From positions 96,001 through 160,000 of IMG/VR virus record IMGVR_UViG_3300022562_002256: a stretch of DNA of 64,000 nt; one strand, given 5' to 3'. This DNA comes from a virus. A program made the translations under genes and the position numbers. Shown here one piece after another: positions 10,236-61,660 of the stretch (its first letter is position 1; every line of letters starts with the position of its first letter). The notes beneath the pieces were generated by a model, which saw only the letters and a list, made by a program, of their open reading frames with translations, was not told where the DNA came from and searched no databases.

Positions 10236-10489
10236 GCTGTCTTGCACTGTCCGTGCCATCGTGGTGTGGTAGCCCCGCGGCGCGCTGGCCGTGTGTTGTC
10301 TTACGTGTGTGGATCGGGATCGATCCACGCCGCGTCAATGATTTCGAGCACTTGGCCGCGTCGGCTGGGCGTGGCATGTTGCCACGGTGTGGCAGACCGC
10401 CACACGTTGCAGAACCAGCACTCAGGTGGCTGCCAGCGCGCGACCCTGGAACGAATCCGTGGCAGAACGCCACAACCAATACTGAACAC
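10236..10489 (-). repeat. upstream cassette family A, copy 1
   Basis: 254 bp, ungapped ~88% identity (about 31 mismatches by hand count) to 61122-61375; ends in a sigma-54 promoter. Confidence 0.9.
10243..10258 (-). promoter_or_regulatory. sigma-54 promoter
   Basis: TGGCACGGACAGTGCA; 13 nt to ATG. Confidence 0.8.
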
Positions 10490-10574
10490 CACCAAACCAC
10501 TGAATAAGACATGGACGAGCGGCGGAGCGCAGGGCGGGGCATGTGCTTCAAGCCCGTGCGCAAGAGGGCGAGGG

Positions 10575-10590
10575 TGGCACGGGTAGTGCA
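10575..10590 (+). promoter_or_regulatory. sigma-54 promoter (no clear ORF directly downstream)
   Basis: TGGCACGGGTAGTGCA. Confidence 0.6.
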
Positions 10591-10759
10591 AGGCGTACGT
10601 TGTCCGTGCACCGGCCAGGAGTTGCGACCTTGTTCGCAACGTTTTAACGGTCGCGTATCCCGGTGTGATAGTCGAGGCTTGTTGGTAACAGCGAGACCTC
10701 GCTAGCCGCCCCGTCGTGCCCTACGGTTTCGGCGGGGGGGTAGTGATGCTCCCCCCAGG

Positions 10760-10775
10760 TGGCACAAGTAGTGCA
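10760..10775 (+). promoter_or_regulatory. sigma-54 promoter
   Basis: TGGCACAAGTAGTGCA; 14 nt to ATG 10789. Confidence 0.8.
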
Positions 10776-10788
10776 AGAAAACTTGAGC

Positions 10789-11328
10789 ATGCAGGCCCCC
10801 TCCGATGTCGTCTCCCCCTCCACTCATCCCTTCGAGCGTGCTGGGTTGGGCAAGGCGCCCTTCCGCTGCGTGGGGATGTCGGTCGAGCAGTACCAGGCGA
10901 TTCCGGGCGACCCGAGCTGCCCTATGCAGCCGGGCGCGTCGTGCGACTACTGCGGGCAGGGCATCATGCTTGTCTACCGCATCCAGGGTGTGGACGGGGC
11001 GAGGTTCAAGGTGGGGTGCGACTGTGTGCGGAAGACGGGGGACACGCGACTTGTCGCCCAAGCCTCCGACTTGGAGCGCAAGCATAACCGCGCGCTCGCG
11101 GCGTCGCGCAAGGCGAAGAAGCTCGCCAGCCGCGCAGAGCGCAACGCCGTCGAGCTGGCGGACGTGCTTGCCAGCCTCGACGAACTCGCTGGCCACCCCG
11201 CTGTTAGCCAGTGGGGGCGGGGCTTCGCGCAGGACGTGGCGAAGCGCATCCGGGCGGGGAAGATGGGCGCTCTCAGCACACCGCAAGCCCAGACCCTTGC
11301 GAAGCTCAGGGGCGAGGTGGGGCCGTGA
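10789..11328 (+). CDS. conserved phage protein with Zn-binding motifs
   Basis: HPFERAGLGKAPF...CDYCG...DGARFKVGCDCVRKTGD. Confidence 0.7.
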   Translation: MQAPSDVVSPSTHPFERAGLGKAPFRCVGMSVEQYQAIPGDPSCPMQPGASCDYCGQGIMLVYRIQGVDGARFKVGCDCVRKTGDTRLVAQASDLERKHNRALAASRKAKKLASRAERNAVELADVLASLDELAGHPAVSQWGRGFAQDVAKRIRAGKMGALSTPQAQTLAKLRGEVGP

Positions 11329-11579
11329 CGGCTCGCTTAGAACGCAGCCCCCATCGGGCCAGAGCACGCAAGTCCGGGCGCTACACCGCTAGCCCGCTGT
11401 GTGACGCGTGTGGCAAGCCGTGCGGAACGGCTTACTTCACAGACGACGAGGTCTGTGGGGGCACGGACGGCCCTGGGTTTTTCCTGTACGAGCGGCGTTC
11501 GTGTATTGTGGCACGTAGCTTGCCGGTGGAGGAGCGGCGGGCGCTGTACACCCGCATGCGCGCCTTGCAGGAGAACTGA
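11325..11579 (+). CDS. small Cys-rich hypothetical protein
   Basis: GTGA coupling; CDACGKPC. Confidence 0.55.
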   Translation: MTARLERSPHRARARKSGRYTASPLCDACGKPCGTAYFTDDEVCGGTDGPGFFLYERRSCIVARSLPVEERRALYTRMRALQEN

Positions 11580-11580
11580 G

Positions 11581-12525
11581 ATGAGACTCGCACTACCAGA
11601 TACCGCGCTGCCCGTTGACGAGATCGTCGTGGCTACGTTTGATCTTACCGACGTCGCCGTAGACGGCGGGCACCCCACGGTCGAGGAGATCGTCGATCTC
11701 GCTCTTGACCCGTACCAAGAGGTAGATATCCCGGACGGGAGCGTTCTCGCCGAGTCGGTCGAGCAAGACGAGGTGGTGCGTTTTGTGCGTGACGCGCACG
11801 CGCTCGGCGCGCGAGGGGTGCACCATCTTCTCGCTCGGATCGAGTCCTATGCACCACCCCCGCTCCCTCTCGAGTCGGTCGAGCCAGCCCTACCCGTGGC
11901 TCTGGCATCCCCGCAGCCCCCTCGTCCGCCGGTGCCTGACGCGGAGCTTGATGATCGCCTCGCGGCATGGAGGCGAGCCCTGCAAGGAGGCGACACGGTG
12001 GGGGCGCTTCGTGCGTGGCGGGCACTGCGTGCCGGCGCGACTGACCCTCCCTGGGAATACCTCGGACCCACGCCGGGGTATCGGGCGTGGGCGGACGCCG
12101 CTGCGCGAGTGTCTCAGCCCCACTACGGTGGGACCACGCGCGTCGATGAGGACGGGTATGAGGAGCACACCACAGGGTGGTGTGAGGGGGGCACCAACCC
12201 CATCCCGTCCGACTGGGTCGTCGATGGGTACGAACATAACTACCGATGGTATGGGGGCAGTTCGTCGGGGGAGCGCCGGCGGTCTCTTGAGGCTGTGGCA
12301 AGAGCCGCGAGGTGGCGGGCTGCACTGCCGACGGCGATAGCCGAGCCAGGGGCGGAGGCGTTTTTCGCCACCCTGCCCATGGACGAGCTCGGCGGTCCTC
12401 CCTACACCGATGCTATCGGGGTAATGGAGGGGCGCGCCCTCCAGGGGCGCGGTCGACGTTGGAAGCCACCGCCGAACGTGGTGGGGGCTATTGCGATTCT
12501 TAGAGGAGAAAGAGGAGGAGTGTAA
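11581..12525 (+). CDS. hypothetical protein
   Basis: AGGAG RBS; 314 aa. Confidence 0.6.
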   Translation: MRLALPDTALPVDEIVVATFDLTDVAVDGGHPTVEEIVDLALDPYQEVDIPDGSVLAESVEQDEVVRFVRDAHALGARGVHHLLARIESYAPPPLPLESVEPALPVALASPQPPRPPVPDAELDDRLAAWRRALQGGDTVGALRAWRALRAGATDPPWEYLGPTPGYRAWADAAARVSQPHYGGTTRVDEDGYEEHTTGWCEGGTNPIPSDWVVDGYEHNYRWYGGSSSGERRRSLEAVARAARWRAALPTAIAEPGAEAFFATLPMDELGGPPYTDAIGVMEGRALQGRGRRWKPPPNVVGAIAILRGERGGV

Positions 12526-12526
12526 C

Positions 12527-12826
12527 ATGAGATACGCTGGAGAGGTCGACGGGCAGAGGGTAACGATCGGTCAGCAGGCGTTGGTCGCGGTGTTGGTCCC
12601 CGCCTACCCCGTTTGTGGGGCGAGCGGGCGGATTCGCGACGTCGCGGCGATCGATGTGCGCCCGGCGGTGATTGAGACGGTGACACCCCTCACCCTGCGC
12701 GACTCGCGGGGCGAGGTGCACGAGGCTTTCCGGTACGAGGAGCCCGTCGTGAGGGATGGGTGCATCGCGATGGAGGGAGGTACGTGGTGTTGGCCCCCTT
12801 TCGCCCAGTCTTGCCGCAAGGCGTGA
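12527..12826 (+). CDS. hypothetical protein
   Basis: GAGGAG RBS; starts right after the previous stop. Confidence 0.55.
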   Translation: MRYAGEVDGQRVTIGQQALVAVLVPAYPVCGASGRIRDVAAIDVRPAVIETVTPLTLRDSRGEVHEAFRYEEPVVRDGCIAMEGGTWCWPPFAQSCRKA

Positions 12827-21397: not shown

Positions 21398-21583
21398 TTA
21401 GGCGTTGAGGATGGCGGCTTCGGCCGCGGCGAAGTGGGTGGTGGCTTCGATGCGCCACTCGGCGAGGATGCTGCGGTCGACGTACCCGTCGGCGAAGCCG
21501 GCGAGGCTGTTGATGATGTCCATCGCCTCATCGAGGTCACGGCCGATGGCGTCGAGTTTCTCATTGCGGGCTGCGTCGTTCAT
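21398..21583 (-). CDS. small acidic protein, near-leaderless
   Basis: ATG 13 nt after a sigma-54 GC. Confidence 0.6.
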   Translation of the reverse strand: MNDAARNEKLDAIGRDLDEAMDIINSLAGFADGYVDRSILAEWRIEATTHFAAAEAAILNA

Positions 21584-21595: not shown

Positions 21596-21611
21596 TGCAC
21601 GCATCGTGCCA
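21596..21611 (-). promoter_or_regulatory. sigma-54 promoter
   Basis: TGGCACGATGCGTGCA; 13 nt to ATG. Confidence 0.8.
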
Positions 21612-21646: not shown

Positions 21647-21853
21647 GCGTTTGCGGCACGTTTCGGGGCGAACAGCACGCACCGCCGATTCTGGACTATC
21701 ATCCCAGCGCGCAAACGTTTGCGCGTCGATTTTGCCAGGTTGGTGAATCCGCTCACGGTGGCACGCACGATCTAGCACTCAAGTGGCTGCCATCAGGCGC
21801 CGGTAAATTCTGCCGGCTAAACGCAAGAAGTGCGCGGGCGGTGGGGCGTGAGG
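21647..21853 (-). repeat. upstream cassette family B, copy 1
   Basis: Inverted copy of 61404-61608; contains CGCGCAAACGTTTGCGCG (21708-21725) and CCGGTAAATTCTGCCGG (21800-21816). Confidence 0.9.
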
Positions 21854-21965: not shown

Positions 21966-21981
21966 TGGCACGGTTAGTGCA
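21966..21981 (+). promoter_or_regulatory. sigma-54 promoter
   Basis: TGGCACGGTTAGTGCA; 13 nt to ATG 21994. Confidence 0.8.
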
Positions 21982-21993: not shown

Positions 21994-22191
21994 ATGAACC
22001 GCCCCGCGAACCTCGCCGACGCCCGTCAGACCTACCGCGCCCTCCGCCTTGCCACCACCCGCCACACGGCGGCCGATTTTGATGATCTCGCTCGGTCTAT
22101 TGCTAGCGAACTCGCCGACGGTGAGGACATCACCCCGGGGCTATGGGTAGATGCCGCTTATATCCTCCACAGCGGCCGAGACTACGCATGA
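21994..22191 (+). CDS. small hypothetical protein, near-leaderless
   Basis: Start fixed by promoter spacing. Confidence 0.6.
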   Translation: MNRPANLADARQTYRALRLATTRHTAADFDDLARSIASELADGEDITPGLWVDAAYILHSGRDYA

Positions 22192-22419
22192 AAGACGCCA
22201 CGTCATCCGGGCTGCCTTGCGGCGCCCGCTGGACGCCAATTGCAGGCGGTCACCCAAGGCGGTTACAGCCTCGCCAACCGCAGTGAACGTGGTCGTAGGG
22301 TACTTCTCAAGTAACCACTTGAGTTGCTCGGAGGTAGTGCGACCCCGCGTGCCGCCGTGGAGGTAGAATTTATAGAGCGCTCGCGCGAGATCATCGAGCG
22401 CTGCTGAGTTCACCGTCAT
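22141..22419 (-). CDS. small hypothetical protein, near-leaderless
   Basis: ATG 15 nt after a sigma-54 GC. Confidence 0.5.
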   Translation of the reverse strand: MTVNSAALDDLARALYKFYLHGGTRGRTTSEQLKWLLEKYPTTTFTAVGEAVTALGDRLQLASSGRRKAARMTWRLSCVVSAAVEDISGIYP

Positions 22420-22433: not shown

Positions 22434-22449
22434 TGCACGCTGCGTGCCA
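22434..22449 (-). promoter_or_regulatory. sigma-54 promoter
   Basis: TGGCACGCAGCGTGCA; 15 nt to ATG. Confidence 0.75.
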
Positions 22450-22521: not shown

Positions 22522-22537
22522 TGGCACGGCTCGTGCA
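22522..22537 (+). promoter_or_regulatory. sigma-54 promoter
   Basis: TGGCACGGCTCGTGCA; 13 nt to ATG 22550. Confidence 0.8.
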
Positions 22538-22549: not shown

Positions 22550-22801
22550 ATGACGACCACCAAACAGACCACGGCGGAAAAGTTCGCGACAGCGTGGGCG
22601 GAGTCCGTTCGCACCAACAGCCCGCTCGACGAGATGGGCATCGATCTCCTCGCCGATACCAAGAACAGGGTCGGCGTGTTCCCCGACGGCAGCGCCGTCG
22701 TGCTCCTCTACATCACCAGCGAAACTGGTTTCGCTGGTGCCGCCGTGGTCGCCAAAGCATCCGAGGCCGACGCCCGCGCTGCGCTGGCGGCCAACATCTG
22801 A
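22550..22801 (+). CDS. small hypothetical protein, near-leaderless
   Basis: Start fixed by promoter spacing. Confidence 0.6.
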   Translation: MTTTKQTTAEKFATAWAESVRTNSPLDEMGIDLLADTKNRVGVFPDGSAVVLLYITSETGFAGAAVVAKASEADARAALAANI

Positions 22802-22808: not shown

Positions 22809-23666
22809 ATGAGCACCCATCCCACACCCAAAATCACCAGGCAGGAAGTCCGCTGGATCCCGCTGCCGGACAGCAAAACGATTGACGTCTCGGGTCGCCC
22901 CGCGCGACTCTGGACGCTCTACGGCCCCGGTCGCGATGACCCGGCCGTGCCGCCCCAACTGCCCATCACCCCGGTCCATCACCATGGGGCATTCCTAGAG
23001 GACGAGACGCACGACTGGATCGTGCGCGGCAATACCCTGCGGTACTTCAGTCGCGTCACAGACCGAGGGACATGGGTGTTGCTCGAGTACGAGGATGCCC
23101 CTCCCCTCCCTTCCACCTCGTCGTCCACCCCCCTCACGCTTTCGGGACTCCTCGCCGCCGTAGAAACCGCGCGCGGCAACCGACAAGCTGCCGCGCGCGC
23201 CCTTGGCCTGCCGCTGCGTACATTCCACCGCCGCGTCGACGAGCTCGGCAGGGAAGCGGTCGACGAGTTGACCGCTCGTCTGGCTGCCGACGGACGCCTC
23301 GATTCTGCCACACGCCGCGGCACCGGGCACGCCCACAGCGCGCTCGCCGTACGGCAGGCATGGGATGCCCATCCGACTAACCGCGAGGCCGCCGCGCGGG
23401 CGCTGGGGGTGTGCGTTCGGGTGGCACTCCGGCTGGCCAAGCGCCACGGAGTCCATGTGCCGCGACCACCACGCTCAGCCACGTCACCGTGCCCCACAGT
23501 GGATTTCGTCTGCGCTCAATGTGGTGCGCGTCACCCGCGAGCGTGGCCGTCGCACAGCCTTCAGTGTCCGGCATGTGGCGGCGATGCATTCCGGCAAGGG
23601 GTGACAGCCCCGGGCGGCGACTCTGACTTGAGGCCGCCCGCGCCCCCATGCAAGTCTTGCGCTTAG
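22809..23666 (+). CDS. protein with two Fis-type HTH motifs and a C-terminal Zn ribbon
   Basis: ARGNRQAAARALGLPLRTFHRRV; HPTNREAAARALGVCVRVALRLAKRHG; CAQC...CPAC. Confidence 0.7.
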   Translation: MSTHPTPKITRQEVRWIPLPDSKTIDVSGRPARLWTLYGPGRDDPAVPPQLPITPVHHHGAFLEDETHDWIVRGNTLRYFSRVTDRGTWVLLEYEDAPPLPSTSSSTPLTLSGLLAAVETARGNRQAAARALGLPLRTFHRRVDELGREAVDELTARLAADGRLDSATRRGTGHAHSALAVRQAWDAHPTNREAAARALGVCVRVALRLAKRHGVHVPRPPRSATSPCPTVDFVCAQCGARHPRAWPSHSLQCPACGGDAFRQGVTAPGGDSDLRPPAPPCKSCA

Positions 23667-23773
23667 GCCGGCAGAATTTACCGGCACCTGATGGCAGCCA
23701 CTTGAGCGCTAGATCGTATGCAAGGTCGTGACCAACTTCACCAACTCGCCAAAATCGACGCGCAAACGGTGCG
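23656..23773 (+). repeat. upstream cassette family B, copy 2 (partial)
   Basis: CCGGCAGAATTTACCGGCACCTGATGGCAGCCACTTGAGCGCTAGATCG...AAAATCGACGCGCAAACGGTGCG; inverted relative to copy 1. Confidence 0.85.
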
Positions 23774-23864
23774 TTGCTTCTCTCCGACCCGGGGTGCTGC
23801 CCCGAGCAGGCATCATGCAGCGACACGTGACCCCCATTTGGTACTCGCCACGCCCTGCAGCCTG

Positions 23865-23880
23865 TGGCACGGTGCGTGCA
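23865..23880 (+). promoter_or_regulatory. sigma-54 promoter
   Basis: TGGCACGGTGCGTGCA; 14 nt to ATG 23894. Confidence 0.8.
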
Positions 23881-23893: not shown

Positions 23894-24127
23894 ATGCTCA
23901 TGCTCGCCGACCGAATCGCAAATATAGTCATGACCATCCACGCCGACCCCGCCGCCTGGCTGCTGGAGGCGCGTCGCCTCTGCGACCGGGCGGGGTTGTC
24001 GCCTGCACGCGCGATTGTCCTTCCCGGGACGCTTGCGGCGGTGGCGCGAGCCATCGTCGAGGAAGCACAGAAGCAAGGGCGCTTCCAGCAGCTCGATGCT
24101 GCTGTGACCGCCATGGAGCAGCCATGA
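23894..24127 (+). CDS. small hypothetical protein, near-leaderless
   Basis: First gene of the operon leading to the C5 MTase. Confidence 0.6.
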   Translation: MLMLADRIANIVMTIHADPAAWLLEARRLCDRAGLSPARAIVLPGTLAAVARAIVEEAQKQGRFQQLDAAVTAMEQP

Positions 24128-26285: not shown

Positions 26286-26301
26286 CGGCACGGTTGATGC
26301 A
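26286..26301 (+). promoter_or_regulatory. sigma-54 promoter
   Basis: CGGCACGGTTGATGCA; 15 nt to ATG 26316. Confidence 0.7.
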
Positions 26302-28022: not shown

Positions 28023-28652
28023 TCATGTCGACGCCCGTTCGGTCCCCGGGGGCGCCTCATCGTCGACCATCTCCCATGCCCGGCTGTAGACCACCTTTGC
28101 GAACAGCGCCGCGACGCCGGTCAACTGCTTGTACCTGAACACGGCGTCCTCCTCGATGCCGAGCTTCGTAGCGATGTCCGCGTCAGAAAGCCCCTGCTCG
28201 ACCAACTTGCGGATCAGGTCCGCATCCAAGTCCACTTGATGCACCCCGCGCGCTTTATTGAACCTCCACGTGGCAGCAAGCCGCTGCGCCATCGTCAGCC
28301 GGAGCATCACCAGGGGCAGGTAGTCACAGTCGAGCCACCCAACACCGAGCACGAGCTTGCGGTGTGCCCCGTCCACCACCACGAACCGCTCCTGGTCATC
28401 ATCCCAGATCACCACGATCGGGAAGCAGAAGCCGCTCTCGACGATGTTTTCGACGAGGCACTCGAGCTTATCCCCGCTCACGTTGTTAGGATTATACAGA
28501 TTTTCCAGAACAAGTACGGGGCGCACCAGCCAGGTGTTGCAGCACGGCACCTCGATCCGGCCGCGAGTGCGCGAGGTGATGAATACCGGCTCGAGTGCTG
28601 CGCGCGCCGCGTGAAACTGCTCAATCGTGTCGATGCACACTACCGACATCAC
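28023..28652 (-). CDS. ibrB: ParB/Srx-domain protein, IbrB/YbdM-like
   Basis: NLYNPNNV...GFCFPIV...VVDGAHR...ATWRFNKARGVH plus C-terminal HTH. Confidence 0.85.
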   Translation of the reverse strand: MMSVVCIDTIEQFHAARAALEPVFITSRTRGRIEVPCCNTWLVRPVLVLENLYNPNNVSGDKLECLVENIVESGFCFPIVVIWDDDQERFVVVDGAHRKLVLGVGWLDCDYLPLVMLRLTMAQRLAATWRFNKARGVHQVDLDADLIRKLVEQGLSDADIATKLGIEEDAVFRYKQLTGVAALFAKVVYSRAWEMVDDEAPPGTERAST

Positions 28653-32485: not shown

Positions 32486-32895
32486 GGACGGGGCCCGCGC
32501 GCCGCCAGATCCTTGAGCGCCTTGCCGACCGGGGTGGCGGCGTAGTCGCCACCGGCGTACACCTCGTCGGCGGAATCGAGACTTGGGAAGCACTTCATCG
32601 TGGGGTCGTCGTCACGCCGCTCCGCCACGGCGCCAAAGAACTCATCAACCCGCCCCACAGGCACATCGACCACTGTCATCGTCAGCGATGGTAGGTCAGC
32701 CACCTCGTACAGCCCGGTGTCGGCAGCGAGCACAGCCGAGTGGCCCAAGTGAGTTGCCCACTCCACGCAATCGGTTGCGGCGGCGTCCATGAGCACATGG
32801 ATCTTCCCCCGCACGATCTGCTGCCACTGCCCCCCGCACGCCTGGATGGCACTCGTCTCTTGCATGGGTCGTTGCGGATGCACGATGCGTGCCAT
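32482..32895 (-). CDS. hypothetical protein
   Basis: Coupled ORF. Confidence 0.45.
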   Translation of the reverse strand: MARIVHPQRPMQETSAIQACGGQWQQIVRGKIHVLMDAAATDCVEWATHLGHSAVLAADTGLYEVADLPSLTMTVVDVPVGRVDEFFGAVAERRDDDPTMKCFPSLDSADEVYAGGDYAATPVGKALKDLAARGPRP

Positions 32896-33473: not shown

Positions 33474-33477
33474 GGTG

Positions 33478-39138: not shown

Positions 39139-39154
39139 TGCACAAACCGTGCCG
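39139..39154 (-). promoter_or_regulatory. sigma-54 promoter (leadered)
   Basis: CGGCACGGTTTGTGCA; RBS in a 24-nt spacer. Confidence 0.7.
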
Positions 39155-39172: not shown

Positions 39173-39188
39173 CGGCACGGCCGTTGCA
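39173..39188 (+). promoter_or_regulatory. sigma-54 promoter
   Basis: CGGCACGGCCGTTGCA; 13 nt to ATG 39201. Confidence 0.8.
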
Positions 39189-42491: not shown

Positions 42492-42507
42492 TGGCACGAT
42501 GCATGCA
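42492..42507 (+). promoter_or_regulatory. sigma-54 promoter (leadered, G11 tract in leader)
   Basis: TGGCACGATGCATGCA, then G11 and GGAGG before ATG 42545. Confidence 0.7.
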
Positions 42508-42544
42508 TGTGGATGCGCCCGGGGGGGGGGGAGGACCAACCGCG

Positions 42545-42775
42545 ATGAGACGACGTGTCATTGTCGACCCGTACACGCCCGGTAGACACGTCAATGCGAT
42601 GACCATCGACGATGACACGGGCAAGCGAATTTTCGTCTTCCCCCGCCCCGGCAGCGTGGTCGTAGGTGTCTGTGAGCGCAAGAAGGCAGCGAGCGTTCTC
42701 CTACGAGTCGAGGAGGTTGACGACCTCCTCGCCGCCCTGCGTGACGCGAGCGCCGTGGCAGGAGGCAAACCGTGA
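42545..42775 (+). CDS. small hypothetical protein
   Basis: GGAGG RBS; 76 aa. Confidence 0.55.
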   Translation: MRRRVIVDPYTPGRHVNAMTIDDDTGKRIFVFPRPGSVVVGVCERKKAASVLLRVEEVDDLLAALRDASAVAGGKP

Positions 42776-44113: not shown

Positions 44114-44129
44114 TGGCACGGGCAATGCA
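44114..44129 (+). promoter_or_regulatory. sigma-54 promoter (followed by only a 17-codon ORF)
   Basis: TGGCACGGGCAATGCA; 14 nt to ATG 44143. Confidence 0.75.
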
Positions 44130-44168: not shown

Positions 44169-44804
44169 TCACTCGATTGTATCGGCAGAAACTTGACTGT
44201 ATTGGTAGACCACATCGGCAAGATCAAACCGCCACCTTGCCACCATCTTGCGCCCGGGCGCCCCGTGGGTGGGCCACCTTGCTTCTGGCATCCCGGAGTC
44301 GCCTATCACCACCTCGGGCATCACCCACCGCATCCCCGCTGCGAGCACGGCGTCCTCGAGCGCCACCATGTCGTTCGCCCACGCCCGCAACACATCGTTC
44401 GGAAGGCGGTCCCACCGCGTGTCGTACCACACAAACCCGCCTCTTGTCGTACAGTGGACACCCTTCAATCGGAGGGCGTATCGCTCCGCTCGCTCTGACA
44501 TCGGCGTTCTCACGCTTCTGTACCCCAGGGCATCCTGCCCGGCATCGCGCCATGTCGGGCCAGTGGCATCGGCGTCGCCAAGGGCAAGCCACTCATCGGG
44601 TCTCCCAGACCGAACGCCGTGCCACACGCCGTGACCATCCTTATCGACCACGAGCGGGCGCCATTCCTCATTCAACGTCATGTGGGCGTTGCACCTTATC
44701 CGCTCGACGCGAAGCCACTCACACTCGGGCCGGTAGAGGCGCACGTCGGAACGCCCACACACGCTGCACGCGTACCTGTGGTAGTATCGGTTACCGCTGG
44801 TCAT
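44169..44804 (-). CDS. hypothetical protein with N-terminal CxxC
   Basis: YACSVCG...RLYRP...RC; ATGA coupling. Confidence 0.55.
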   Translation of the reverse strand: MTSGNRYYHRYACSVCGRSDVRLYRPECEWLRVERIRCNAHMTLNEEWRPLVVDKDGHGVWHGVRSGRPDEWLALGDADATGPTWRDAGQDALGYRSVRTPMSERAERYALRLKGVHCTTRGGFVWYDTRWDRLPNDVLRAWANDMVALEDAVLAAGMRWVMPEVVIGDSGMPEARWPTHGAPGRKMVARWRFDLADVVYQYSQVSADTIE

Positions 44805-45031
44805 GTCGGCCTCGCCCACCACTCCGTCTTGCACGTTGTGCAGACCAACCACTCCACGACATTGGCACACCGGCGCCACGCGTGGCACACACTGCACCAC
44901 TTTTCCACGACCGTCGTCTCCGTCGCATACAAAGGGGTGCTGATAACCACCCCTTGCATGGTCACAAGATCGACGGGCGCTCCAGTCAAGCGCTCGACGC
45001 GTCGATTCCGTTCTTCCCCGTGGGTGTGCAT
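44801..45031 (-). CDS. small Zn-ribbon protein, near-leaderless
   Basis: CSVC...CTTC; ATG 13 nt after a sigma-54 GC. Confidence 0.6.
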   Translation of the reverse strand: MHTHGEERNRRVERLTGAPVDLVTMQGVVISTPLYATETTVVEKWCSVCHAWRRCANVVEWLVCTTCKTEWWARPT

Positions 45032-45043: not shown

Positions 45044-45059
45044 TGCACATACCGTGCCA
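45044..45059 (-). promoter_or_regulatory. sigma-54 promoter
   Basis: TGGCACGGTATGTGCA; 13 nt to ATG. Confidence 0.8.
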
Positions 45060-45237: not shown

Positions 45238-45717
45238 TCACGTCGTGCATAAGTTGCGGGGGTCGCCGGTGTCTCGCATGCCACGCCGCAGTTTGGTCAG
45301 CTCGGCGTGGACCGAGTAGGGCGTCACCTGCCGGTCCACCCAGTCTCGCAACGCCGCCTCGTATGCCCACCGCTTGCCCCCCCGCGCCTTCAGCAGCGGC
45401 ACTGGATCGTGATCCCGGAGCGCCAACCGTCCGACCTCTGACTCGCTCATGCCGAGCACATGGGCAATGTCACGGCGCCCATGCACACGCGCCAGGGCGG
45501 TCCCGTCCGCGAGCACGCCACCGTTGAACGTGCGGGCCTTCCACTCGTCGAGCGCGCCCGGCTTTGCCCACGGCTGTCCCCGAACCGCCATCACCGGCAG
45601 CGGGTCGACGCGCCTACGCGCGTAAGCCAACACCGTGTCGGGGCACGACACGACGGCCAACCGGCGCGCTATGGCCTTCCAGCCGATGAGAGGGGGCGCC
45701 GATGGGGCTGTCAGCAC
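45238..45717 (-). CDS. tandem excisionase/AlpA-like winged-HTH protein
   Basis: Two internal repeats: IGWKAIARRL...DPLPV...W...ALDEW and HGRRDIAHVLG...DPVPL...WAYEAALRDW. Confidence 0.6.
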   Translation of the reverse strand: MLTAPSAPPLIGWKAIARRLAVVSCPDTVLAYARRRVDPLPVMAVRGQPWAKPGALDEWKARTFNGGVLADGTALARVHGRRDIAHVLGMSESEVGRLALRDHDPVPLLKARGGKRWAYEAALRDWVDRQVTPYSVHAELTKLRRGMRDTGDPRNLCTT

Positions 45718-46262
45718 GGCGGGCCACACCAGCCCCACCACAGGCTGATGAACATGTCGGCCGCCGCCGACAACGCCGCGTCGTGATCCTCGTAGATGCC
45801 GGTCACACGGTCGGGTTCGTCTTGCATGCGCACGATGCCGACGTGGCCGCCGCGGCAGAGCCCCGTCGTCGGGTATGGCCCATTGGGGAGCGCCTCCGTT
45901 ATGGCCCACGCAGCCCGCTGCATAGGCGACAGATCCGCCCATGCCACGCAGTGCGGATTCCCACCACACGCGGCGGCGTACGTCTGTTCGCCGGCTGACG
46001 GTGCCGAGTTGTCCACCGGCGCTGGAGGAGACTCACTCGCGTCCCAGCGCTCGACTATCGCGCCGGTGCCGGTGACATCGCGCATGCCCACCGCGCAGTC
46101 CAGAAATTCCCCCCCAGCGATTTCGCGCGCGCGCACGCCATGGGCGGTGTGGCCCCCACAGAACAGCAATACCGTGCTTTCCGCCAGCCCGTCAACCACG
46201 CGGCGCCGCCAATAGAGCCGCCCCGGCGTGGGCCGCCACGCCGCATCAATCACATCGCCCAT
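45711..46262 (-). CDS. hypothetical protein
   Basis: GGAGGAG RBS. Confidence 0.55.
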   Translation of the reverse strand: MGDVIDAAWRPTPGRLYWRRRVVDGLAESTVLLFCGGHTAHGVRAREIAGGEFLDCAVGMRDVTGTGAIVERWDASESPPAPVDNSAPSAGEQTYAAACGGNPHCVAWADLSPMQRAAWAITEALPNGPYPTTGLCRGGHVGIVRMQDEPDRVTGIYEDHDAALSAAADMFISLWWGWCGPPC

Positions 46263-46292: not shown

Positions 46293-46308
46293 TGCACGCC
46301 GTGTGCCA
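46293..46308 (-). promoter_or_regulatory. sigma-54 promoter (leadered)
   Basis: TGGCACACGGCGTGCA; RBS-containing leader. Confidence 0.7.
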
Positions 46309-51613: not shown

Positions 51614-51966
51614 GGCTCCTCTGGTGGCAATTCCCGTGCCACCCACCGTGCGAAGTCGCCGAGCAGCTTGGGTAGCTCGCTGAGCCGCCCCTCCTCACGC
51701 AGGATGGTCGTCAAAAACCAACTCGACGGGCCACCATTAATCGACGCCACCCATCGGATCATGGCGTCACGGGTCTCAAACGGGTTCGCGCGGTGCGCCG
51801 CCGGGCGCAGGAGCAACTGTCGAGTTTCAACCAGGTTGTACATCGCCAGTTCCTGGGCGAACGGTGGCCCCCACATCTCCGGCGCGCGCTCATAGTTCTC
51901 GATCCATGCGCTCACCCGGGTGAGCGCGGCGTCGAACCCTTCAGCCTTTTTGGCGTCACTGGTCAT
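51610..51966 (-). CDS. hypothetical protein
   Basis: ATGA coupling on both sides. Confidence 0.55.
   Translation of the reverse strand: MTSDAKKAEGFDAALTRVSAWIENYERAPEMWGPPFAQELAMYNLVETRQLLLRPAAHRANPFETRDAMIRWVASINGGPSSWFLTTILREEGRLSELPKLLGDFARWVARELPPEEP
51626..51641 (-). promoter_or_regulatory. sigma-54 promoter (inside the 3' end of the upstream gene)
   Basis: TGGCACGGGAATTGCC; 13 nt to ATG. Confidence 0.6.
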
Positions 51967-53739: not shown

Positions 53740-53755
53740 TGCACATCACGTGCCA
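53740..53755 (-). promoter_or_regulatory. sigma-54 promoter
   Basis: TGGCACGTGATGTGCA. Confidence 0.7.
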
Positions 53756-54697: not shown

Positions 54698-54979
54698 TCA
54701 GCCGTACACCGGCCGCATCTGCTCGTCGAACCTCGGCGGCTTCCCCTTGAGGGCTTCACGCACCTGCCGAGCCGACCACTGGTCAGGCATGACATCCCAT
54801 TCGCACAGCACCAACATGCGGTTGATCTGCAGCAGTTGCGCCGCCGTGAAGCGATCATTGAACGACTCGGCGGTGGCGTCCATGTTGGAGCGCAACAGGC
54901 GGATTTCCTCCGCCCCCGTGAGCACCTCGCCGTCCACAACCAACCTGCCCCGTTCGACTCTGTTCTTGGCCTTGTCCAT
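54698..54979 (-). CDS. hypothetical protein, near-leaderless
   Basis: ATG 15 nt after a sigma-54 GC. Confidence 0.6.
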   Translation of the reverse strand: MDKAKNRVERGRLVVDGEVLTGAEEIRLLRSNMDATAESFNDRFTAAQLLQINRMLVLCEWDVMPDQWSARQVREALKGKPPRFDEQMRPVYG

Positions 54980-54993: not shown

Positions 54994-55009
54994 TGCACGA
55001 TCCATGCCA
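54994..55009 (-). promoter_or_regulatory. sigma-54 promoter
   Basis: TGGCATGGATCGTGCA; 15 nt to ATG. Confidence 0.75.
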
Positions 55010-56290: not shown

Positions 56291-56494
56291 TCACGCAAAC
56301 GCATCTCGGCCCGCCGCGCGAAATGCGCCGCGAGGACGCAGCCGCCGCTGGCCGTTCGGGCCGTCGAAACGGATCATCCGGTGGTTGGAAGCGGGGGTGG
56401 TGGTCCCGTCCGCGTTCTCGCGCGAGGGGACCACTACGGTGATCGCGGTGTTGTCGTGACGGCGATGAGGACGGCGAGGATTATTGGCGTTCAT
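56291..56494 (-). CDS. small hypothetical protein, near-leaderless
   Basis: ATG 14 nt after a sigma-54 GC. Confidence 0.5.
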   Translation of the reverse strand: MNANNPRRPHRRHDNTAITVVVPSRENADGTTTPASNHRMIRFDGPNGQRRLRPRGAFRAAGRDAFA

Positions 56495-56507: not shown

Positions 56508-56523
56508 AGCACGTGCCGTGCCA
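56508..56523 (-). promoter_or_regulatory. sigma-54 promoter
   Basis: TGGCACGGCACGTGCT; 14 nt to ATG. Confidence 0.8.
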
Positions 56524-58110: not shown

Positions 58111-58126
58111 TGCACTTTCCGTGCCG
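58111..58126 (-). promoter_or_regulatory. sigma-54 promoter
   Basis: CGGCACGGAAAGTGCA; 14 nt to ATG. Confidence 0.75.
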
Positions 58127-58757: not shown

Positions 58758-58773
58758 TGCACGTGGCGTGCCA
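58758..58773 (-). promoter_or_regulatory. sigma-54 promoter (leadered)
   Basis: TGGCACGCCACGTGCA. Confidence 0.65.
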
Positions 58774-59496: not shown

Positions 59497-59780
59497 ATCG
59501 CTCCTTTCCGCGTCTCTTCAACCAAAGCCGCCGCTCTCGCGGCGTGACTCTCCCACCCAATTCCATCGGCCATGAAGCCGACGATCGCGTATAGAAGCGC
59601 CGACAAGGCCGGCGCGTCCAGGGTGATGTCGTACGCGAGGGCGTTCATGTCGACCTCGCTGTAGTCCGCCCGCCGCTCGAGCCACCGCTCCACGCGTTCC
59701 ACAGCCTCAGCCACAAGGGGCTCGGCGGCGAGTGCGCTCTGCGCCGCGATCACGCGGCGCGCCGTGTCGGCGAGGGTCAT
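59493..59780 (-). CDS. hypothetical protein
   Basis: GAGGA RBS; ATGA coupling. Confidence 0.55.
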   Translation of the reverse strand: MTLADTARRVIAAQSALAAEPLVAEAVERVERWLERRADYSEVDMNALAYDITLDAPALSALLYAIVGFMADGIGWESHAARAAALVEETRKGAI

Positions 59781-60277
59781 CGCGTCCTCTGGCCGCGCCG
59801 TGCCTTGCACGCCGAGACCGCCCATCGGCATCGCCGCTCACGGCGGGTAGAGATGCGCATCTCCGGGACCGGAGCGCAAACCTGGTCAGACTCGGGCTCC
59901 CGCTCGGGCTCAGGGATGAAAAACCGATAAGATGACGACGTCGCCCCGAACAGCGCGCCAGCCATGCGGCCAGCCACGCGCCCCTCCACGCACACGCCGT
60001 GGGCGAACACGGCCTCCGAGCTGGTCTGGGTCAGACCATACCTCCCACTATAGACGCTGATTTTTTGGATCAACACTTGCGGCTGCGCCGCGAGCCACTC
60101 GCGCACGGCAGGCCACGATGAGCCAAACATCGCGGCGTCCAGTTCGAGCCACGACCCTTGTCGGTCGACCCCCGTTGCCACCTTGGACAGGCTGCCCGCG
60201 GGCAGCCTGTACTCCGCCTCGATGGCAGCGTAGTACGCTGCCCGAGCCGCTATCACGAAGGAAAGATTTGCTTCCAT
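59777..60277 (-). CDS. hypothetical protein
   Basis: Downstream of the sigma-54 promoter at 60300. Confidence 0.5.
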   Translation of the reverse strand: MEANLSFVIAARAAYYAAIEAEYRLPAGSLSKVATGVDRQGSWLELDAAMFGSSWPAVREWLAAQPQVLIQKISVYSGRYGLTQTSSEAVFAHGVCVEGRVAGRMAGALFGATSSSYRFFIPEPEREPESDQVCAPVPEMRISTRRERRCRWAVSACKARRGQRTR

Positions 60278-60299
60278 TGGTCTCTCTAGTTGTTTTGTA

Positions 60300-60315
60300 T
60301 GCACGTGCCGTGCCA
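60300..60315 (-). promoter_or_regulatory. sigma-54 promoter (leadered)
   Basis: TGGCACGGCACGTGCA; 23-nt spacer. Confidence 0.75.
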
Positions 60316-60324
60316 CGGGTGCGC

Positions 60325-60778
60325 TCACCCGTCTCTGAGTTTCATAAGCGCGCGGTCGTCCACACCGACCGCGCTGATGACGATGAGTCCTCGCTCGGCG
60401 CACCGCAGCGCGAAGGCGAGACGGTCCTCGAGCGTCGAATCGTTCAACAAGGGCACTGAGAGCATAGAGCGCACGCAACTCGTCATTTTTCACCAGCGCG
60501 AGATCTTGCGCGGGCCTCAGCGGGATGACTCCACGGATCCCGTGGAGCGGGTCAACGGTGGTTCGGTCGCGGTGGGCTGGCAGACCGAATTCGCACTGTT
60601 CGAAGGGGCAGTGAGCACCCCCGTGCCACGCCGCGTCGTGCCCATCGCGCGGCTCGAAAGAGCGACCGAGGGCGACCTCCGAGTCACGGCAGTCGCCGCA
60701 CAGGTCGGCCCCCGAATCGAGAGCCCCGCTCGCGAGCCGGTCACATCCGTTCGCACACATGGTCGTCCAGATATTCAT
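60325..60778 (-). pseudogene. Cys-rich ORF with a probable frameshift near 60460
   Basis: High-GC3 codons switch frame around 60470-60450; the shifted frame ends at TGA 60325. Confidence 0.35.
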
Positions 60779-60786
60779 TTTCCCAC

Positions 60787-61116
60787 CTATAAAAGGCGCA
60801 CTTCGTGCGCCACAAGGCGACGCGCCTCGTCGCCTTCGCGCGTACGCGCCGCGACCAAGGCGGCGATGCGACCGCGGGCCGCGCCGAGCGTCGTGGCGTC
60901 AACCTGGGCTCGAGCCCAGAGTGCGTCGCTTTCGGCGTCCCAGGCAGCCTGGGCGCCGAGGTCGTCGGCGGGTGCGCCAGGGAACAGGGGCCGCGGTCGG
61001 GCGGCGAGCCACTCAAAATGGGTGGTCCGAGCATACGCTCGGACTAGGTGCGCGGTCTTTGCGTCGAGGCGATGCGCTCGGCGGCGGCGGCGGAGTCGGC
61101 GTGCTCTGGGGTTCAT
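60787..61116 (-). CDS. hypothetical protein, near-leaderless
   Basis: ATG 13 nt after a sigma-54 GC. Confidence 0.6.
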   Translation of the reverse strand: MNPRARRLRRRRRAHRLDAKTAHLVRAYARTTHFEWLAARPRPLFPGAPADDLGAQAAWDAESDALWARAQVDATTLGAARGRIAALVAARTREGDEARRLVAHEVRLL

Positions 61117-61121
61117 GTCCT

Positions 61122-61375
61122 GCTGTCTTGCACTGTCCGTGCCATCGTGGCGCGGCAACCGCACGGCGCGCTGGTCGTGTGCGGCCTTACGGTGGCGGAT
61201 CGGCGTCGATCCACGCCGTGTCAATGATTTTGGGCACTTAGCCGCGCCGGCGGGGCGTGGCATGTTGCCACACCGTGGCAGACCGCCACACGTCGCAGAA
61301 CCAGCACTCAAGTGGCTGCCAGCACGCGGTCCTGGAACAAATCCGTGGCAGAACGCCACAACCAATACTGAACAC
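61122..61375 (-). repeat. upstream cassette family A, copy 2
   Basis: Direct repeat of 10236-10489. Confidence 0.9.
61129..61144 (-). promoter_or_regulatory. sigma-54 promoter
   Basis: TGGCACGGACAGTGCA; 13 nt to ATG. Confidence 0.8.
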
Positions 61376-61403
61376 GGCGCCGGGGAGAGCGGGAACACCA
61401 CGC

Positions 61404-61608
61404 CCTCACGCCCCACCGCCCGCGCGCTTCTTGCGTTTAGCCGGCAGAATTTACCGGCACCTGCTGACAGCCGGTTGAGCGCTAGATCGTGCGTGCCGAC
61501 GTGAGCGGATTCACCGACTCGGCAAAATCGACGCGCAAACGGTGCGCCAAGGGGCGATAGTCCAGAATCGTGGAGCGGGCTGTTCGCCCCGAATTGTGCC
61601 GCAAACGC
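61404..61608 (+). repeat. upstream cassette family B, copy 3
   Basis: Inverted copy of 21647-21853; palindrome at 61441-61457. Confidence 0.9.
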
Positions 61609-61644
61609 AAGAGCGCACGCGGAGACGTCCCTCCCCTCGCCAAG

Positions 61645-61660
61645 TGGCACGGTGCGTGCA
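61645..61660 (+). promoter_or_regulatory. sigma-54 promoter
   Basis: TGGCACGGTGCGTGCA; 14 nt to ATG 61674. Confidence 0.8.

What the first reader, a model, noticed from the sequence alone, without database searches (positions are those of the whole stretch)
10236..61660. Window-wide sigma-54 regulon that launches near-leaderless mRNAs
Seen: 24 matches to YGGCAY-N6-TGC(W), i.e. GG-N10-GC, almost all intergenic and oriented into a gene. In 17 the ATG begins 13-15 nt after the GC (starts 10230, 10789, 21583, 21994, 22419, 22550, 23894, 26316, 39201, 44143, 45031, 51613, 54979, 56494, 58097, 61116, 61674). Most of these lack an RBS, and the ATG is nearly always preceded by C. The leadered cases mostly carry an RBS-like sequence. 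Known: sigma-54 transcription starts about 12 nt after the -12 C and needs an AAA+ enhancer-binding activator; myxobacteria rely heavily on sigma-54. Inference: the phage places dozens of small accessory genes under host sigma-54/EBP control with 1-3 nt leaders. I am not aware of this being described as a phage-wide programme.
Basis: partly seen in the sequence, partly recalled or inferred. Interest (0 to 1): 0.88.

Follow-up and report, generated by a model that had tools for sequence, protein, structure and literature searches.

The report
Phage-wide sigma-54 promoters, near-leaderless genes
A 198-kb uncultured phage heads roughly fifty of its transcription units with textbook sigma-54 promoters placed so close to the ATG that the mRNAs would have almost no leader, a layout that also occurs on the chromosomes of Polyangiaceae myxobacteria, its probable hosts.

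Summary
No RNA data could be obtained.

- **Motif:** the window holds 32 YGGCAY-N6-TGC matches, against 6 expected. The whole 198-kb phage holds 38 exact TGGCACG-N4-KTGCW sites, against 0.15 expected, and only with the N4 spacer.
- **Position:** 36 of the 38 lie outside ORF cores.
- **Near-leaderless starts:** about half the sites have an ATG 14-15 nt after the -12 C. These starts are never GTG or TTG, have C at -1 in 29 of 32 cases, and lack a Shine-Dalgarno sequence. Coding periodicity begins at that ATG.
- **Activator:** the phage encodes no rpoN and no enhancer-binding ATPase. Two families of dispersed upstream cassettes look like enhancers.
- **Other phages:** unrelated IMG/VR phages carry the same layout.
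- **Probable host:** the layout, including the unusual G at -14, is frequent in Polyangiaceae chromosomes (76 hits against 8 control hits in 26 genomes). The phage therefore appears to copy its probable host's own signals.

A second, sigma-70-like promoter class in this phage is also near-leaderless. The only published precedent I found is a sigma-54-like promoter in Pseudomonas phage YuA. This scan has noted similar cassettes in other phage genomes.

The parts
10243..10258 (-). Sigma-54-type promoter, exact consensus. ATG at 10230; ORF 10069-10230 (53 aa). Near-leaderless.
10259..10574 (.). Enhancer-like cassette B between divergent promoters. Three GTGGC-N5-GCCAC palindromes centred at 10378, 10396 and 10466, plus GTGGATC-N6-GATCCAC at 10319.
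   Evidence: It is 87-93% identical to three other copies. The palindromes lie 120, 138 and 208 bp upstream of one promoter in all four copies.
10575..10590 (+). Sigma-54-type promoter, exact consensus, with no ORF behind it. A structured stretch of about 174 nt follows. Tandem with the next promoter.
   Evidence: fold z = -2.8
10760..10775 (+). Sigma-54-type promoter, 1 mismatch. ATG at 10789; ORF 10789-11328 (179 aa). Near-leaderless.
11509..11524 (+). Sigma-54-type promoter, 1 mismatch. Leadered by about 58 nt, with an AGGA-type RBS, before gene 11581-12525.
21596..21611 (-). Sigma-54-type promoter, exact consensus. ATG at 21583; ORF 21398-21583 (61 aa).
21680..21850 (.). Enhancer-like cassette A core between divergent promoters 21611(-) and 21966(+). 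Contains GCCGG-N9-CCGGC at 21808 and CTCAAGTGGC at 21783.
21966..21981 (+). Sigma-54-type promoter, exact consensus. ATG at 21994; ORF 21994-22191 (65 aa).
22434..22449 (-). Sigma-54-type promoter, exact consensus. ATG at 22419; ORF 22141-22419 (92 aa). Back-to-back with 22522(+).
22522..22537 (+). Sigma-54-type promoter, exact consensus. ATG at 22550; ORF 22550-22801 (83 aa), followed by the double Fis-HTH gene.
22809..23666 (+). Orphan 285-aa protein with two Fis-type (HTH_8) helix-turn-helix motifs and a C-terminal zinc ribbon. Candidate DNA binder of the regulon; this role is untested.
23650..23776 (.). Enhancer-like cassette A core upstream of promoter 23865(+).
23865..23880 (+). Sigma-54-type promoter, exact consensus. 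ATG at 23894; ORF 23894-24127 (77 aa). Heads the rightward genes up to about 26271.
26286..26301 (+). Weak match (2 mismatches). The ATG at 26316 opens a 72-aa ORF with a negative coding score. Doubtful.
32879..32894 (-). ATG at 32865; ORF 32482-32865 (127 aa). Heads a leftward operon that runs to about 28023 and includes a PAPS-reductase/DUF3440 gene.
39139..39154 (-). Sigma-54-type promoter, 1 mismatch. Leadered, with GAGG before a GTG. Back-to-back with 39173(+).
39173..39188 (+). Sigma-54-type promoter, 1 mismatch. ATG at 39201; DUF4942 gene 39201-40019 (272 aa). The start is confirmed by homologue lengths and by an independent gene call.
42492..42507 (+). Sigma-54-type promoter, 1 mismatch. 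Leader of about 39 nt with a poly-G run and GGAGG.
44114..44129 (+). Sigma-54-type promoter, 1 mismatch. The ATG at 44143 opens only 17 codons, and the promoter points antisense into the 3' end of a minus-strand gene. No credible gene.
45044..45059 (-). Sigma-54-type promoter, exact consensus. ATG at 45031; ORF 44801-45031 (76 aa, weak coding score).
46293..46308 (-). Sigma-54-type promoter, 1 mismatch. Leader of about 31 nt with GGAGG before gene 45711-46262.
51626..51641 (-). Sigma-54-type match, 1 mismatch. ATG at 51613; 70-aa ORF, weak support.
53740..53755 (-). Sigma-54-type promoter, exact consensus. ATG at 53729 (offset 12); 64-aa ORF, weak support.
54994..55009 (-). Sigma-54-type promoter, 1 mismatch. 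ATG at 54979; ORF 54698-54979 (93 aa, strong coding score).
56508..56523 (-). Sigma-54-type promoter, exact consensus. ATG at 56494; ORF 56291-56494 (67 aa, weak).
58111..58126 (-). Sigma-54-type promoter, 1 mismatch. The ATG at 58097 opens only 41 codons. More likely this promoter gives a leader to the 410-429-aa DHH-like gene ending at 56750.
58758..58773 (-). Sigma-54-type promoter, exact consensus. Leadered; an RBS-like AAAGGAG lies downstream.
60300..60315 (-). Sigma-54-type promoter, exact consensus. Leader of 23 nt before gene 59777-60277 (166 aa).
61129..61144 (-). Sigma-54-type promoter, exact consensus. ATG at 61116; ORF 60787-61116 (109 aa, weak coding score).
61145..61611 (.). Composite control region. 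Cassette B has palindromes at 61264, 61282 and 61352 next to 61144(-). Cassette A (61404-61611) lies next to 61645(+).
61645..61660 (+). Sigma-54-type promoter, exact consensus. ATG at 61674; ORF 61674-61919 (81 aa).

Best explanation
These are genuine sigma-54 (-24/-12) promoters read by the host's RNA polymerase-sigma-54 holoenzyme. Consensus: TGGCACGG-nn-C-GTGCA-W.

- **Scale:** about 50-60 of them are spread over the non-structural parts of the 198-kb phage. About 26 lie in this window.
- **What they drive:** they head short ORFan genes and some longer operons.
- **Near-leaderless transcripts:** in about half, the ATG starts 14-15 nt after the -12 C. A transcript starting at the canonical distance (12 nt), or at the conserved C(-1)A(+1) step, would carry a leader of 0-3 nt. 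It would be translated without a Shine-Dalgarno sequence, by the leaderless route.
- **Activator:** sigma-54 closed complexes need an AAA+ enhancer-binding protein (EBP), and the phage encodes none. Activation is therefore inferred to come from a host EBP. For about a third of the promoters it would bind the conserved cassettes 60-230 bp upstream. Cassette B carries three GTGGC-N5-GCCAC palindromes.
- **Origin of the layout:** the phage copies a layout native to Polyangiaceae (Myxococcota), its probable host family.

Shown: the motif, its spacing and placement, start-codon usage, the cassettes, the absence of phage rpoN and EBP, recurrence in unrelated phages, and recurrence in Polyangiaceae genomes.

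Inferred: sigma-54 dependence, the transcription start point, the identity of the activator, the translation mode and the host.
For: **Consensus and spacing**
- 51 sites match TGGCACG-N4-TTGCW with up to one mismatch, against 3.2 in shuffles. 38 exact K-variant sites stand against 0.15.
- Only the N4 spacer is used: 38 sites, against 0-2 for other spacers.
- The position matrix fits sigma-54.
- The 5-nt gap between the two elements and the 13 nt or so to the ATG do not fit sigma-70-type -35/-10 geometry (established knowledge).

**Placement**
- 36 of 38 exact sites lie outside ORF cores.

**Start codons and coding signal**
- ATG occupancy peaks at offsets 14-15.
- Codon-position GC after these ATGs is .66/.50/.79, matching long genes at .67/.50/.82. 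The upstream sequence shows no such periodicity.
- 32 of 32 linked starts are ATG, against 63% ATG among SD-led starts (Fisher 4.6e-6).
- C is at -1 in 29 of 32.
- The DUF4942 start is confirmed by homologue lengths.

**No phage-encoded factor found**
- No phage rpoN, EBP or GAFTGA motif.
- The one phage AAA protein is Cdc48/Rpt-like.

**Enhancer-like cassettes**
- Two cassette families with fixed geometry.

**Other phages**
- 33 IMG/VR stretches carry promoter plus CATGA at this spacing. The reversed control gives 1 stretch and a shifted spacing gives 10.
- The five contigs examined share essentially no proteins with this phage and carry no EBP.

**Host chromosomes**
- 26 Polyangiaceae genomes give 76 hits to TGGCAC-N5-GTGCW-N11-13-ATG against 8 control hits.
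- The same genomes give 11 hits against 6 at N21-23.
- Two other families give 7 against 3 and 18 against 8.
- In MAG contigs of Polyangiaceae and Acidobacteriaceae, such sites precede ordinary cellular genes whose Pfam domains begin near residue 4-26.
Against: - No RNA 5' ends or expression data exist.
- The host is not identified directly.
  - The portal protein has only distant hits (27-28% identity) in 151 Myxococcota genomes.
  - Myxococcus phage Mx4 has no such sites.
  - The cassette-B tandem palindrome was not found above control level in 401 Myxococcota genomes.
- No activator is identified, and only about a third of the promoters have a recognisable upstream cassette.
- G at -14 departs from the textbook TTGC and creates a 5-bp dyad, GCACG-N3-CGTGC. 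That dyad could also serve as an operator.
- The canonical start point falls 2-3 nt before the ATG, not on it, so translation of 5'-GNC-AUG must be assumed.
- E. coli sigma-54 mRNAs typically have long 5' UTRs (PMC4591121).
- Several copies are part of repeated modules, so not all sites are independent.
Confidence: 0.72

Rival explanations
1. Host sigma-54 reads the sites, but a phage-encoded, non-canonical factor activates them. Candidates are the double Fis-HTH/zinc-ribbon protein or the classical AAA ATPase, acting through the cassettes. Alternatively the -12 variant allows activator-independent (bypass) initiation.
For: - The phage has no canonical EBP.
- It encodes an orphan protein with two NtrC/Fis-type HTH motifs directly downstream of a sigma-54 promoter.
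- It encodes a 408-aa AAA protein.
- The cassettes are phage-specific; they were not found in 401 Myxococcota genomes.
- The -12 region departs from TTGC.
Against: - The HTH protein has no homologues anywhere, so it cannot explain the same promoters in unrelated phages.
- The AAA protein belongs to the Cdc48/Rpt clade and lacks a GAFTGA loop.
- The GTGC variant is native to Polyangiaceae chromosomes, where ordinary EBPs are abundant (PMC12316311).
Confidence: 0.13
2. A phage-encoded specificity factor recognises the motif, not sigma-54. Candidates are one of the three phage sigma-70-family proteins or an unknown factor. The likeness to -24/-12 would then be coincidental.
For: - The phage encodes three sigma-70-family genes.
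- G at -14 and the 5-bp dyad are atypical for sigma-54.
Against: - The sites match the sigma-54 consensus at 12 of 12 specified positions, with strict N4 spacing.
- The geometry is incompatible with -35/-10 promoters.
- Unrelated phages share the motif but not proteins. Four of the five checked lack any sigma-70 region 2 hit, although these contigs are incomplete.
- The same motif stands before cellular genes in Polyangiaceae.
- A separate TTGAC-N13-TGGTTAT class better fits sigma-70-type factors.
Confidence: 0.06
3. The sites bind sigma-54 holoenzyme or a dimeric regulator (through GCACG-N3-CGTGC) but are not promoters. They would act as sinks, roadblocks or operators.
For: - Many E. coli sigma-54 sites are transcriptionally silent (PMC4591121).
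- The core contains a 5-bp inverted repeat.
Against: - The orientation towards genes and the fixed 14-15 nt distance to ATG-only starts are what a promoter predicts, not a sink.
- The TGG at -26 to -24 has no symmetric partner.
- There is no covariation between the dyad arms.
Confidence: 0.05
4. Compositional or repeat artefact: a GC-rich genome plus copies of one repeated module.
For: Some promoters lie inside the repeated cassettes.
Against: - Dinucleotide shuffles and reversed-pattern controls give about 0-3 sites against 38-51 observed.
- Most sites have unique flanks.
- Spacer specificity is strict.
Confidence: 0.01

Closest known systems
Enhancer-dependent bacterial sigma-54 promoters (glnAp2/NtrC, nifH/NifA, pspA/PspF)
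   Same: - GG at -24 and GC at -12 with exact spacing, and the extended consensus TGGCACG-N4-xTGCW.
- Upstream dyad-rich elements at about -80 to -230.
- Frequent divergent arrangement.
   Different: - G instead of T at -14.
- About 50 near-consensus sites in 0.2 Mb, whereas the five bacterial genomes checked have 2-6 exact sites in 4-8 Mb.
- Almost no 5' UTR, whereas E. coli sigma-54 mRNAs have long UTRs (PMC4591121).
- The activator is unknown.
- The setting is a phage genome.
Pseudomonas phage YuA sigma-54-like promoter (Ceyssens et al. 2008, as cited in PMC10914365)
   Same: A phage whose transcription is reported to depend partly on host sigma-54. The promoter region was detected by promoter trap and ONT-cappable-seq.
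   Different: - YuA has one or a few such promoters, not a genome-wide set.
- No near-leaderless layout or repeated enhancer cassettes are reported in the text I read.
Leaderless mRNAs (lambda cI from PRM; common in Actinobacteria, Deinococcus, Caulobacter)
   Same: - The promoter element sits at a fixed short distance from an AUG.
- Start codons are exclusively AUG.
- There is no Shine-Dalgarno sequence.
   Different: - Known cases are driven by sigma-70-type -10 elements. Here the driver is a -24/-12 promoter.
- The leader may be 2-3 nt rather than zero.
- The second promoter class of this phage (TGGTTAT-N9-10-ATG) is the more conventional analogue.
Native Polyangiaceae sigma-54 sites with ATG 13-15 nt after the -12 C (found here)
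   Same: - The same GTGC -12 variant.
- The same distance to ATG.
- The same C before the ATG.
   Different: - Chromosomal density is about 3 per genome of 4-11 Mb, against about 35 in this 0.2-Mb phage.
- Chromosomal sites favour GTGCT, whereas phage sites favour GTGCA.
- I did not find this described in the papers I searched.

Membership tests
Sigma-54 (-24/-12) promoter | GG and GC doublets exactly 10 bp apart within TGGCACG-N4-TTGCW | tested here: met
   38 exact K-variant sites and 51 sites within one mismatch of the textbook form. Only the N4 spacer is used. Position -14 is G in 57 of 68 sites.
Sigma-54 (-24/-12) promoter | Located upstream of a gene and oriented towards it | tested here: met
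   56 of 70 sites lie outside ORF cores. 61 of 70 have a co-oriented ORF start within 200 nt.
Sigma-54 (-24/-12) promoter | Upstream activator (enhancer) sites for an AAA+ EBP | tested here: inconclusive
   Conserved cassettes with palindromes lie 60-230 bp upstream of about a third of the promoters. Their binder is unknown. No EBP is encoded in the phage.
Sigma-54 (-24/-12) promoter | Transcription starts about 12 nt after the -12 C and depends on RpoN | not testable with these tools
Sigma-54 (-24/-12) promoter | The host possesses rpoN | tested here: inconclusive
   The host is not identified directly. The promoter variant is enriched in Polyangiaceae genomes. Myxococcota are rich in EBPs (PMC12316311).
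Leaderless or near-leaderless mRNA | Promoter element at a fixed distance that places the start point at or within about 3 nt of the start codon | tested here: met
   The ATG lies at offset 14 or 15 from the -12 C in 35 of 83 loose sites, against about 1.5 per offset elsewhere.
Leaderless or near-leaderless mRNA | AUG start codon only, and no Shine-Dalgarno sequence | tested here: met
   32 of 32 starts are ATG, against 63% ATG in SD-led starts. SD-like words are absent in nearly all.
Leaderless or near-leaderless mRNA | Mapped 5' end at the AUG and translation by the leaderless route | not testable with these tools
   Needs dRNA-seq or Cappable-seq, plus toeprinting or Ribo-seq.
Phage-encoded sigma-54 or EBP system | The phage carries rpoN-like or Sigma54_activat (GAFTGA) genes | tested here: not met
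   PF04552 and PF04963 give no hit. PF00158 and PF14532 give only Walker-A-level hits. No GAFTGA motif in six frames. The AAA protein is Cdc48/Rpt-like.

The most novel reading that the evidence does not exclude
Sigma-54-initiated, essentially leaderless mRNAs may be a native and so far undescribed expression mode of Polyangiaceae. Phages of these bacteria would have adopted it genome-wide.

- They use dozens of near-perfect sites to capture the host's sigma-54 holoenzyme.
- Portable enhancer cassettes would then recruit a host activator, or a new kind of phage-encoded activator that is not an AAA+ EBP.
- This would let the phage run its accessory and early programme independently of sigma-70.
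Probability: 0.3. Interest if true: 0.88.

Novelty: new variant of a known kind. Interest (0 to 1): 0.72.

Why it matters
Sigma-54 promoters are silent until an ATP-driven activator opens them, and they are normally reserved for small specialised regulons.

- **Scale:** a phage that places about fifty transcription units under such promoters, with no activator of its own, ties much of its gene expression to a host signalling protein. That would be an unusual way for a virus to time or condition its programme.
- **Translation:** combining these promoters with near-zero leaders links two mechanisms that are usually studied apart. It predicts that sigma-54 holoenzyme can deliver mRNAs that are ready for translation without a leader.
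- **Host:** the same layout on Polyangiaceae chromosomes gives a testable host assignment. It also points to a bacterial promoter class that gene callers and promoter predictors probably mis-handle.
- **Tools:** the compact modules of enhancer, promoter and ATG could serve as tightly off, inducible expression parts for myxobacteria.

Tried and rejected
- **Close relatives:** none in the phage collection or IMG/VR using the portal protein.
- **Host via homologues:**
  - Portal search in 151 Myxococcota genomes gave only hits at 27-28% identity.
  - The protein atlas search for DnaB was uninformative.
- **Host enhancer:** the cassette-B tandem palindrome was not found above control level in 401 Myxococcota genomes.
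- **Cultured myxophage:** Mx4 has no loose matches in 50 kb. Mx1 (169.6 kb, 55.5% GC; PMC10720576) is not this phage. Mx1, Mx8 and Mx9 were not scanned.
- **Phage activator:**
  - The Fis-HTH protein has no homologue, so co-occurrence could not be tested.
  - The G003 Sigma54_activat hit is a ComM/Mg-chelatase ATPase.
- **RNA hairpin reading of GCACG-N3-CGTGC:** no covariation between the arms, so rejected.
- **Conserved GGCR start-site signature in leadered promoters:** seen in only 3 of 18, so dropped.
- **Sigma-70 consensus promoters and intrinsic terminators:** not enriched in 10-30 kb of the window.
- **Functions of the promoter-proximal genes:** 20 were tested against Pfam or PHROGs. All but the weak Pribosyltran and GmrSD_N hits are ORFans.
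- **DUF4942 homologues in other phages:** they sit inside ordinary operons without the motif.
- **Rfam:** no family in the window.

Full report
**Source.** The window is bases 96,001-160,000 of a 198,045-bp IMG/VR virus record with direct terminal repeats and 66% GC. The record encodes a Mu-like portal and protease and a baseplate J protein. It also encodes replication genes (RecD2, DnaB) and three sigma-70-family factors. No close relative is available in the phage collection or in IMG/VR.

**Is the motif real?** Yes.
- YGGCAY-N6-TGC occurs 32 times in the window, against 6.0 +/- 2.3 in shuffles.
- Genome-wide, TGGCACG-N5-TGC occurs 46 times, against 1 for the reversed pattern.
- The textbook sigma-54 consensus TGGCACG-N4-TTGCW with up to one mismatch gives 51 sites, against 3.2 +/- 2.0. 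The exact form with G or T at -14 gives 38, against 0.15.
- Only the N4 spacer is populated: 38 sites, against 0-2 for N1-N8.
- The position matrix reads TGGCACGG-nn-C-GTGCA-W. This is the sigma-54 consensus, except that -14 is G in 84% of sites.
- 56 of 70 sites, and 36 of the 38 exact ones, lie outside ORF cores. Those cores cover 76% of the genome (P about 9e-23).
- The sites avoid 79-106 kb and 178-198 kb, which hold part of the replication genes and the head genes.

**Is the ATG spacing real?** Yes.
- Among 83 loose hits, the A of an ATG sits at offset 14 in 15 cases and at offset 15 in 20. Other offsets average about 1.5.
- 34 of 70 stricter sites have a start at offsets 13-17 that opens an ORF of at least 40 codons with a positive codon score.
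- Downstream of these ATGs, codon-position GC is .66/.50/.79. That matches long genes (.67/.50/.82). The upstream sequence is flat.
- The starts are ATG in 32 of 32 cases. Starts preceded by a Shine-Dalgarno word are 77 ATG, 36 GTG and 10 TTG (Fisher 4.6e-6). Exclusive use of AUG is what leaderless translation requires.
- C is at -1 in 29 of 32, G at -3 in 23 of 32, and A at +4 in 22 of 32.
- For the DUF4942 gene (39201-40019), an independent gene call gives the same 272-aa product. Homologues of 257-295 aa cover 96-100% of it.
Three are not credible genes (44143, 58097, 26316) and four are weak.
- Leadered promoters commonly carry GGAGG-like sequences.

**Who reads the motif?**
- The two elements are 5 nt apart and lie about 13 nt from the ATG. 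This fits -24/-12 geometry and not -35/-10 geometry (established knowledge).
- The phage has no sigma-54 domains, no Sigma54_activat or Sigma54_activ_2 domain above Walker-A level, and no GAFTGA motif in any frame.
- Its single AAA protein groups with Cdc48/Rpt ATPases.
- A scan of IMG/VR for promoter plus CATGA at this spacing found 33 stretches. The reversed pattern found 1, and a spacing shifted by 6 nt found 10.
- Five contigs with several sites (36-125 kb, 60-71% GC) show further copies of the same layout that the scan pattern did not select for.
- Those five share essentially no proteins with this phage in the parts fetched. They encode no EBP, and only one has a sigma-70 region 2 hit.
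- A shared signal in unrelated phages points to a host factor.

**Host lineage.**
- A pattern scan of one genome per species returned many MAG contigs. Of the 80 listed, 14 are labelled Polyangiaceae, Polyangium, Nannocystis or Myxococcota.
- In such contigs and in Acidobacteriaceae contigs, sigma-54 sites stand 13-16 nt before the ATG of ordinary cellular genes. These include UDP-glucose dehydrogenase, a GT4 glycosyltransferase, a Wza-like exporter, an ECF sigma factor, a PNPOx-like protein and a nitroreductase. Their Pfam domains begin at residues 4-26.
- In 26 Polyangiaceae genomes, TGGCAC-N5-GTGCW-N11-13-ATG occurs 76 times against 8 for the reversed control.
- The same genomes give 11 against 6 when the ATG is moved 10 nt further away.
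- The family of an Acidovorax genome gives 7 against 3. Acidobacteriaceae give 18 against 8, mostly from one conserved locus.
- The phage's unusual G at -14 and its near-leaderless spacing are therefore native to Polyangiaceae. This supports both host sigma-54 recognition and a Polyangiaceae-like host.
- Density differs greatly. The five bacterial genomes checked have 2-6 exact consensus sites in 4-8 Mb. The phage has 38 in 0.2 Mb.
- Against a simple "myxophage" label: Mx4 has no site, and portal homologues in Myxococcota are distant.

**Enhancers.** An all-against-all comparison of promoter-upstream regions shows two dispersed cassette families.
- Family A is about 125-160 bp long with 76-92% identity. 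In the window it lies between 21611(-) and 21966(+), upstream of 23865(+), and upstream of 61645(+). It contains GCCGG-N9-CCGGC and GCCACTTGAG elements.
- Family B is about 200-250 bp long with 87-93% identity. In the window it lies between 10258(-) and 10575(+) and next to 61144(-). It holds three GTGGC-N5-GCCAC palindromes at exactly 120, 138 and 208 bp from one flanking promoter in all four copies.
- 12 of the 13 genome-wide occurrences of that palindrome lie in these cassettes.
- This is the anatomy expected of EBP binding sites, but the binder is unknown. The tandem palindrome was not found above control level in 401 Myxococcota genomes.
- About two thirds of the promoters have no recognisable cassette.
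- An orphan phage protein with two Fis/NtrC-type HTH motifs and a zinc ribbon (22809-23666) is a candidate binder. That role is speculation.

**Start point.**
- The canonical start is 12 nt after the -12 C. PMC4591121 uses 19 bp from the motif centre.
- That puts the start 2-3 nt before the ATG, near the conserved G at -3.
- The conserved C(-1)A(+1) step would instead fit initiation on the A of the ATG.
- Either way the leader is 0-3 nt, and only 5'-end mapping can decide between them.
- A second promoter class, TTGAC-N13-TGGTTAT, has 16 sites. Eight of them have an ATG 9-10 nt after GGTTAT. So near-leaderless starts are a general habit of this phage, not a property of the sigma-54 sites alone.

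**Content of the regulon.**
- The promoter-proximal genes are almost all ORFans of 50-330 aa.
- Several promoters head longer operons. For example, 32894(-) leads into a leftward block of about 5 kb that includes a PAPS-reductase/DUF3440 gene.
- Outside the window, one sigma-54 promoter stands in front of a phage sigma-70-family gene. This hints at a cascade.

**Literature.**
- Searches for sigma-54 promoters in phages and for leaderless sigma-54 transcripts found no description of a phage-wide programme.
- The precedent is Pseudomonas phage YuA, reported to depend on sigma-70 and sigma-54, with one sigma-54-like promoter region confirmed by ONT-cappable-seq (PMC10914365).
- Background facts come from PMC12316311: the consensus, the near-absence of rpoN in Actinomycetota, and the high EBP counts in Myxococcota.
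- Earlier notes of this scan record similar sigma-54-type, near-leaderless cassettes in at least 19 other phage genomes and in other windows of this genome. I treated these as leads only.

**Verdict.** The best explanation is a genome-wide set of host sigma-54 promoters giving 0-3 nt leaders, copied from a layout native to Polyangiaceae and activated by an unidentified EBP, probably of the host (confidence 0.72). It is a new variant of a known kind. Function, start point, activator and host all still need experiments.

Noticed in passing
window 7547(+), 44949(-), 54682(-); 16 sites genome-wide: Second promoter class, TTGAC-N13-TGGTTAT. It is enriched upstream of genes in the blocks that lack sigma-54 sites. 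Eight copies have an ATG 9-10 nt after GGTTAT, again with C before the ATG. It may be read by host sigma-70 or by one of the three phage sigma factors.
   Followed up: partly
genome 22641-23510(-), 77556-78608(+), 95296-96246(+) (the last reaches window 1-246): Three phage sigma-70-family genes. The first lies just downstream of sigma-54 promoter 23529(-). That promoter's offset-15 ATG opens only a 24-codon ORF out of frame with the sigma ORF. This may be a cascade with a leader peptide, or a mis-called start.
   Followed up: partly
window 22809-23666 (+): Orphan 285-aa protein with two Fis/NtrC-type HTH_8 motifs and a C-terminal zinc ribbon. It has no homologue among 5.8 billion proteins.
   Followed up: partly
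window 10602-10775 (+): About 174 nt with no ORF between tandem promoters 10575(+) and 10760(+). It folds better than shuffles (z = -2.8). It may be a structured leader or a small RNA. No Rfam match.
   Followed up: partly
genome 46937(+) and 49748(-) (outside the window): Two promoters with no ATG share the predicted start sequence GGCGTAACGACGG. This suggests non-coding transcripts. An earlier scan note says the same.
   Followed up: no
window 28023-36467 (-) and 39201-40019 (+): Cluster of DNA-modification genes: a PAPS-reductase/DUF3440 protein, a Dam-type D12 methyltransferase, and a DUF4942 protein.
   Followed up: partly
genome 63714-64940 (-): 408-aa classical AAA ATPase (Cdc48/Rpt-like) next to the RecD2 helicase gene. 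Function unknown. It is not an EBP.
   Followed up: partly
window 42508-42545 (+): The leader of promoter 42492(+) contains a run of 11 G followed by GGAGG. This could be a slippage-prone or regulatory tract.
   Followed up: no
L070 (Polyangiaceae MAG contig, 11.5 kb): Five sigma-54-type sites in 1.5 kb with the same near-leaderless layout. Probably a phage or prophage fragment binned with a Polyangiaceae genome.
   Followed up: no
G431 (Polyangiaceae genome, 9.0 Mb): 15 chromosomal hits to TGGCAC-N5-GTGCW-N11-13-ATG against 0 control hits, the richest genome sampled. It would be a good place to define the native regulon.
   Followed up: no
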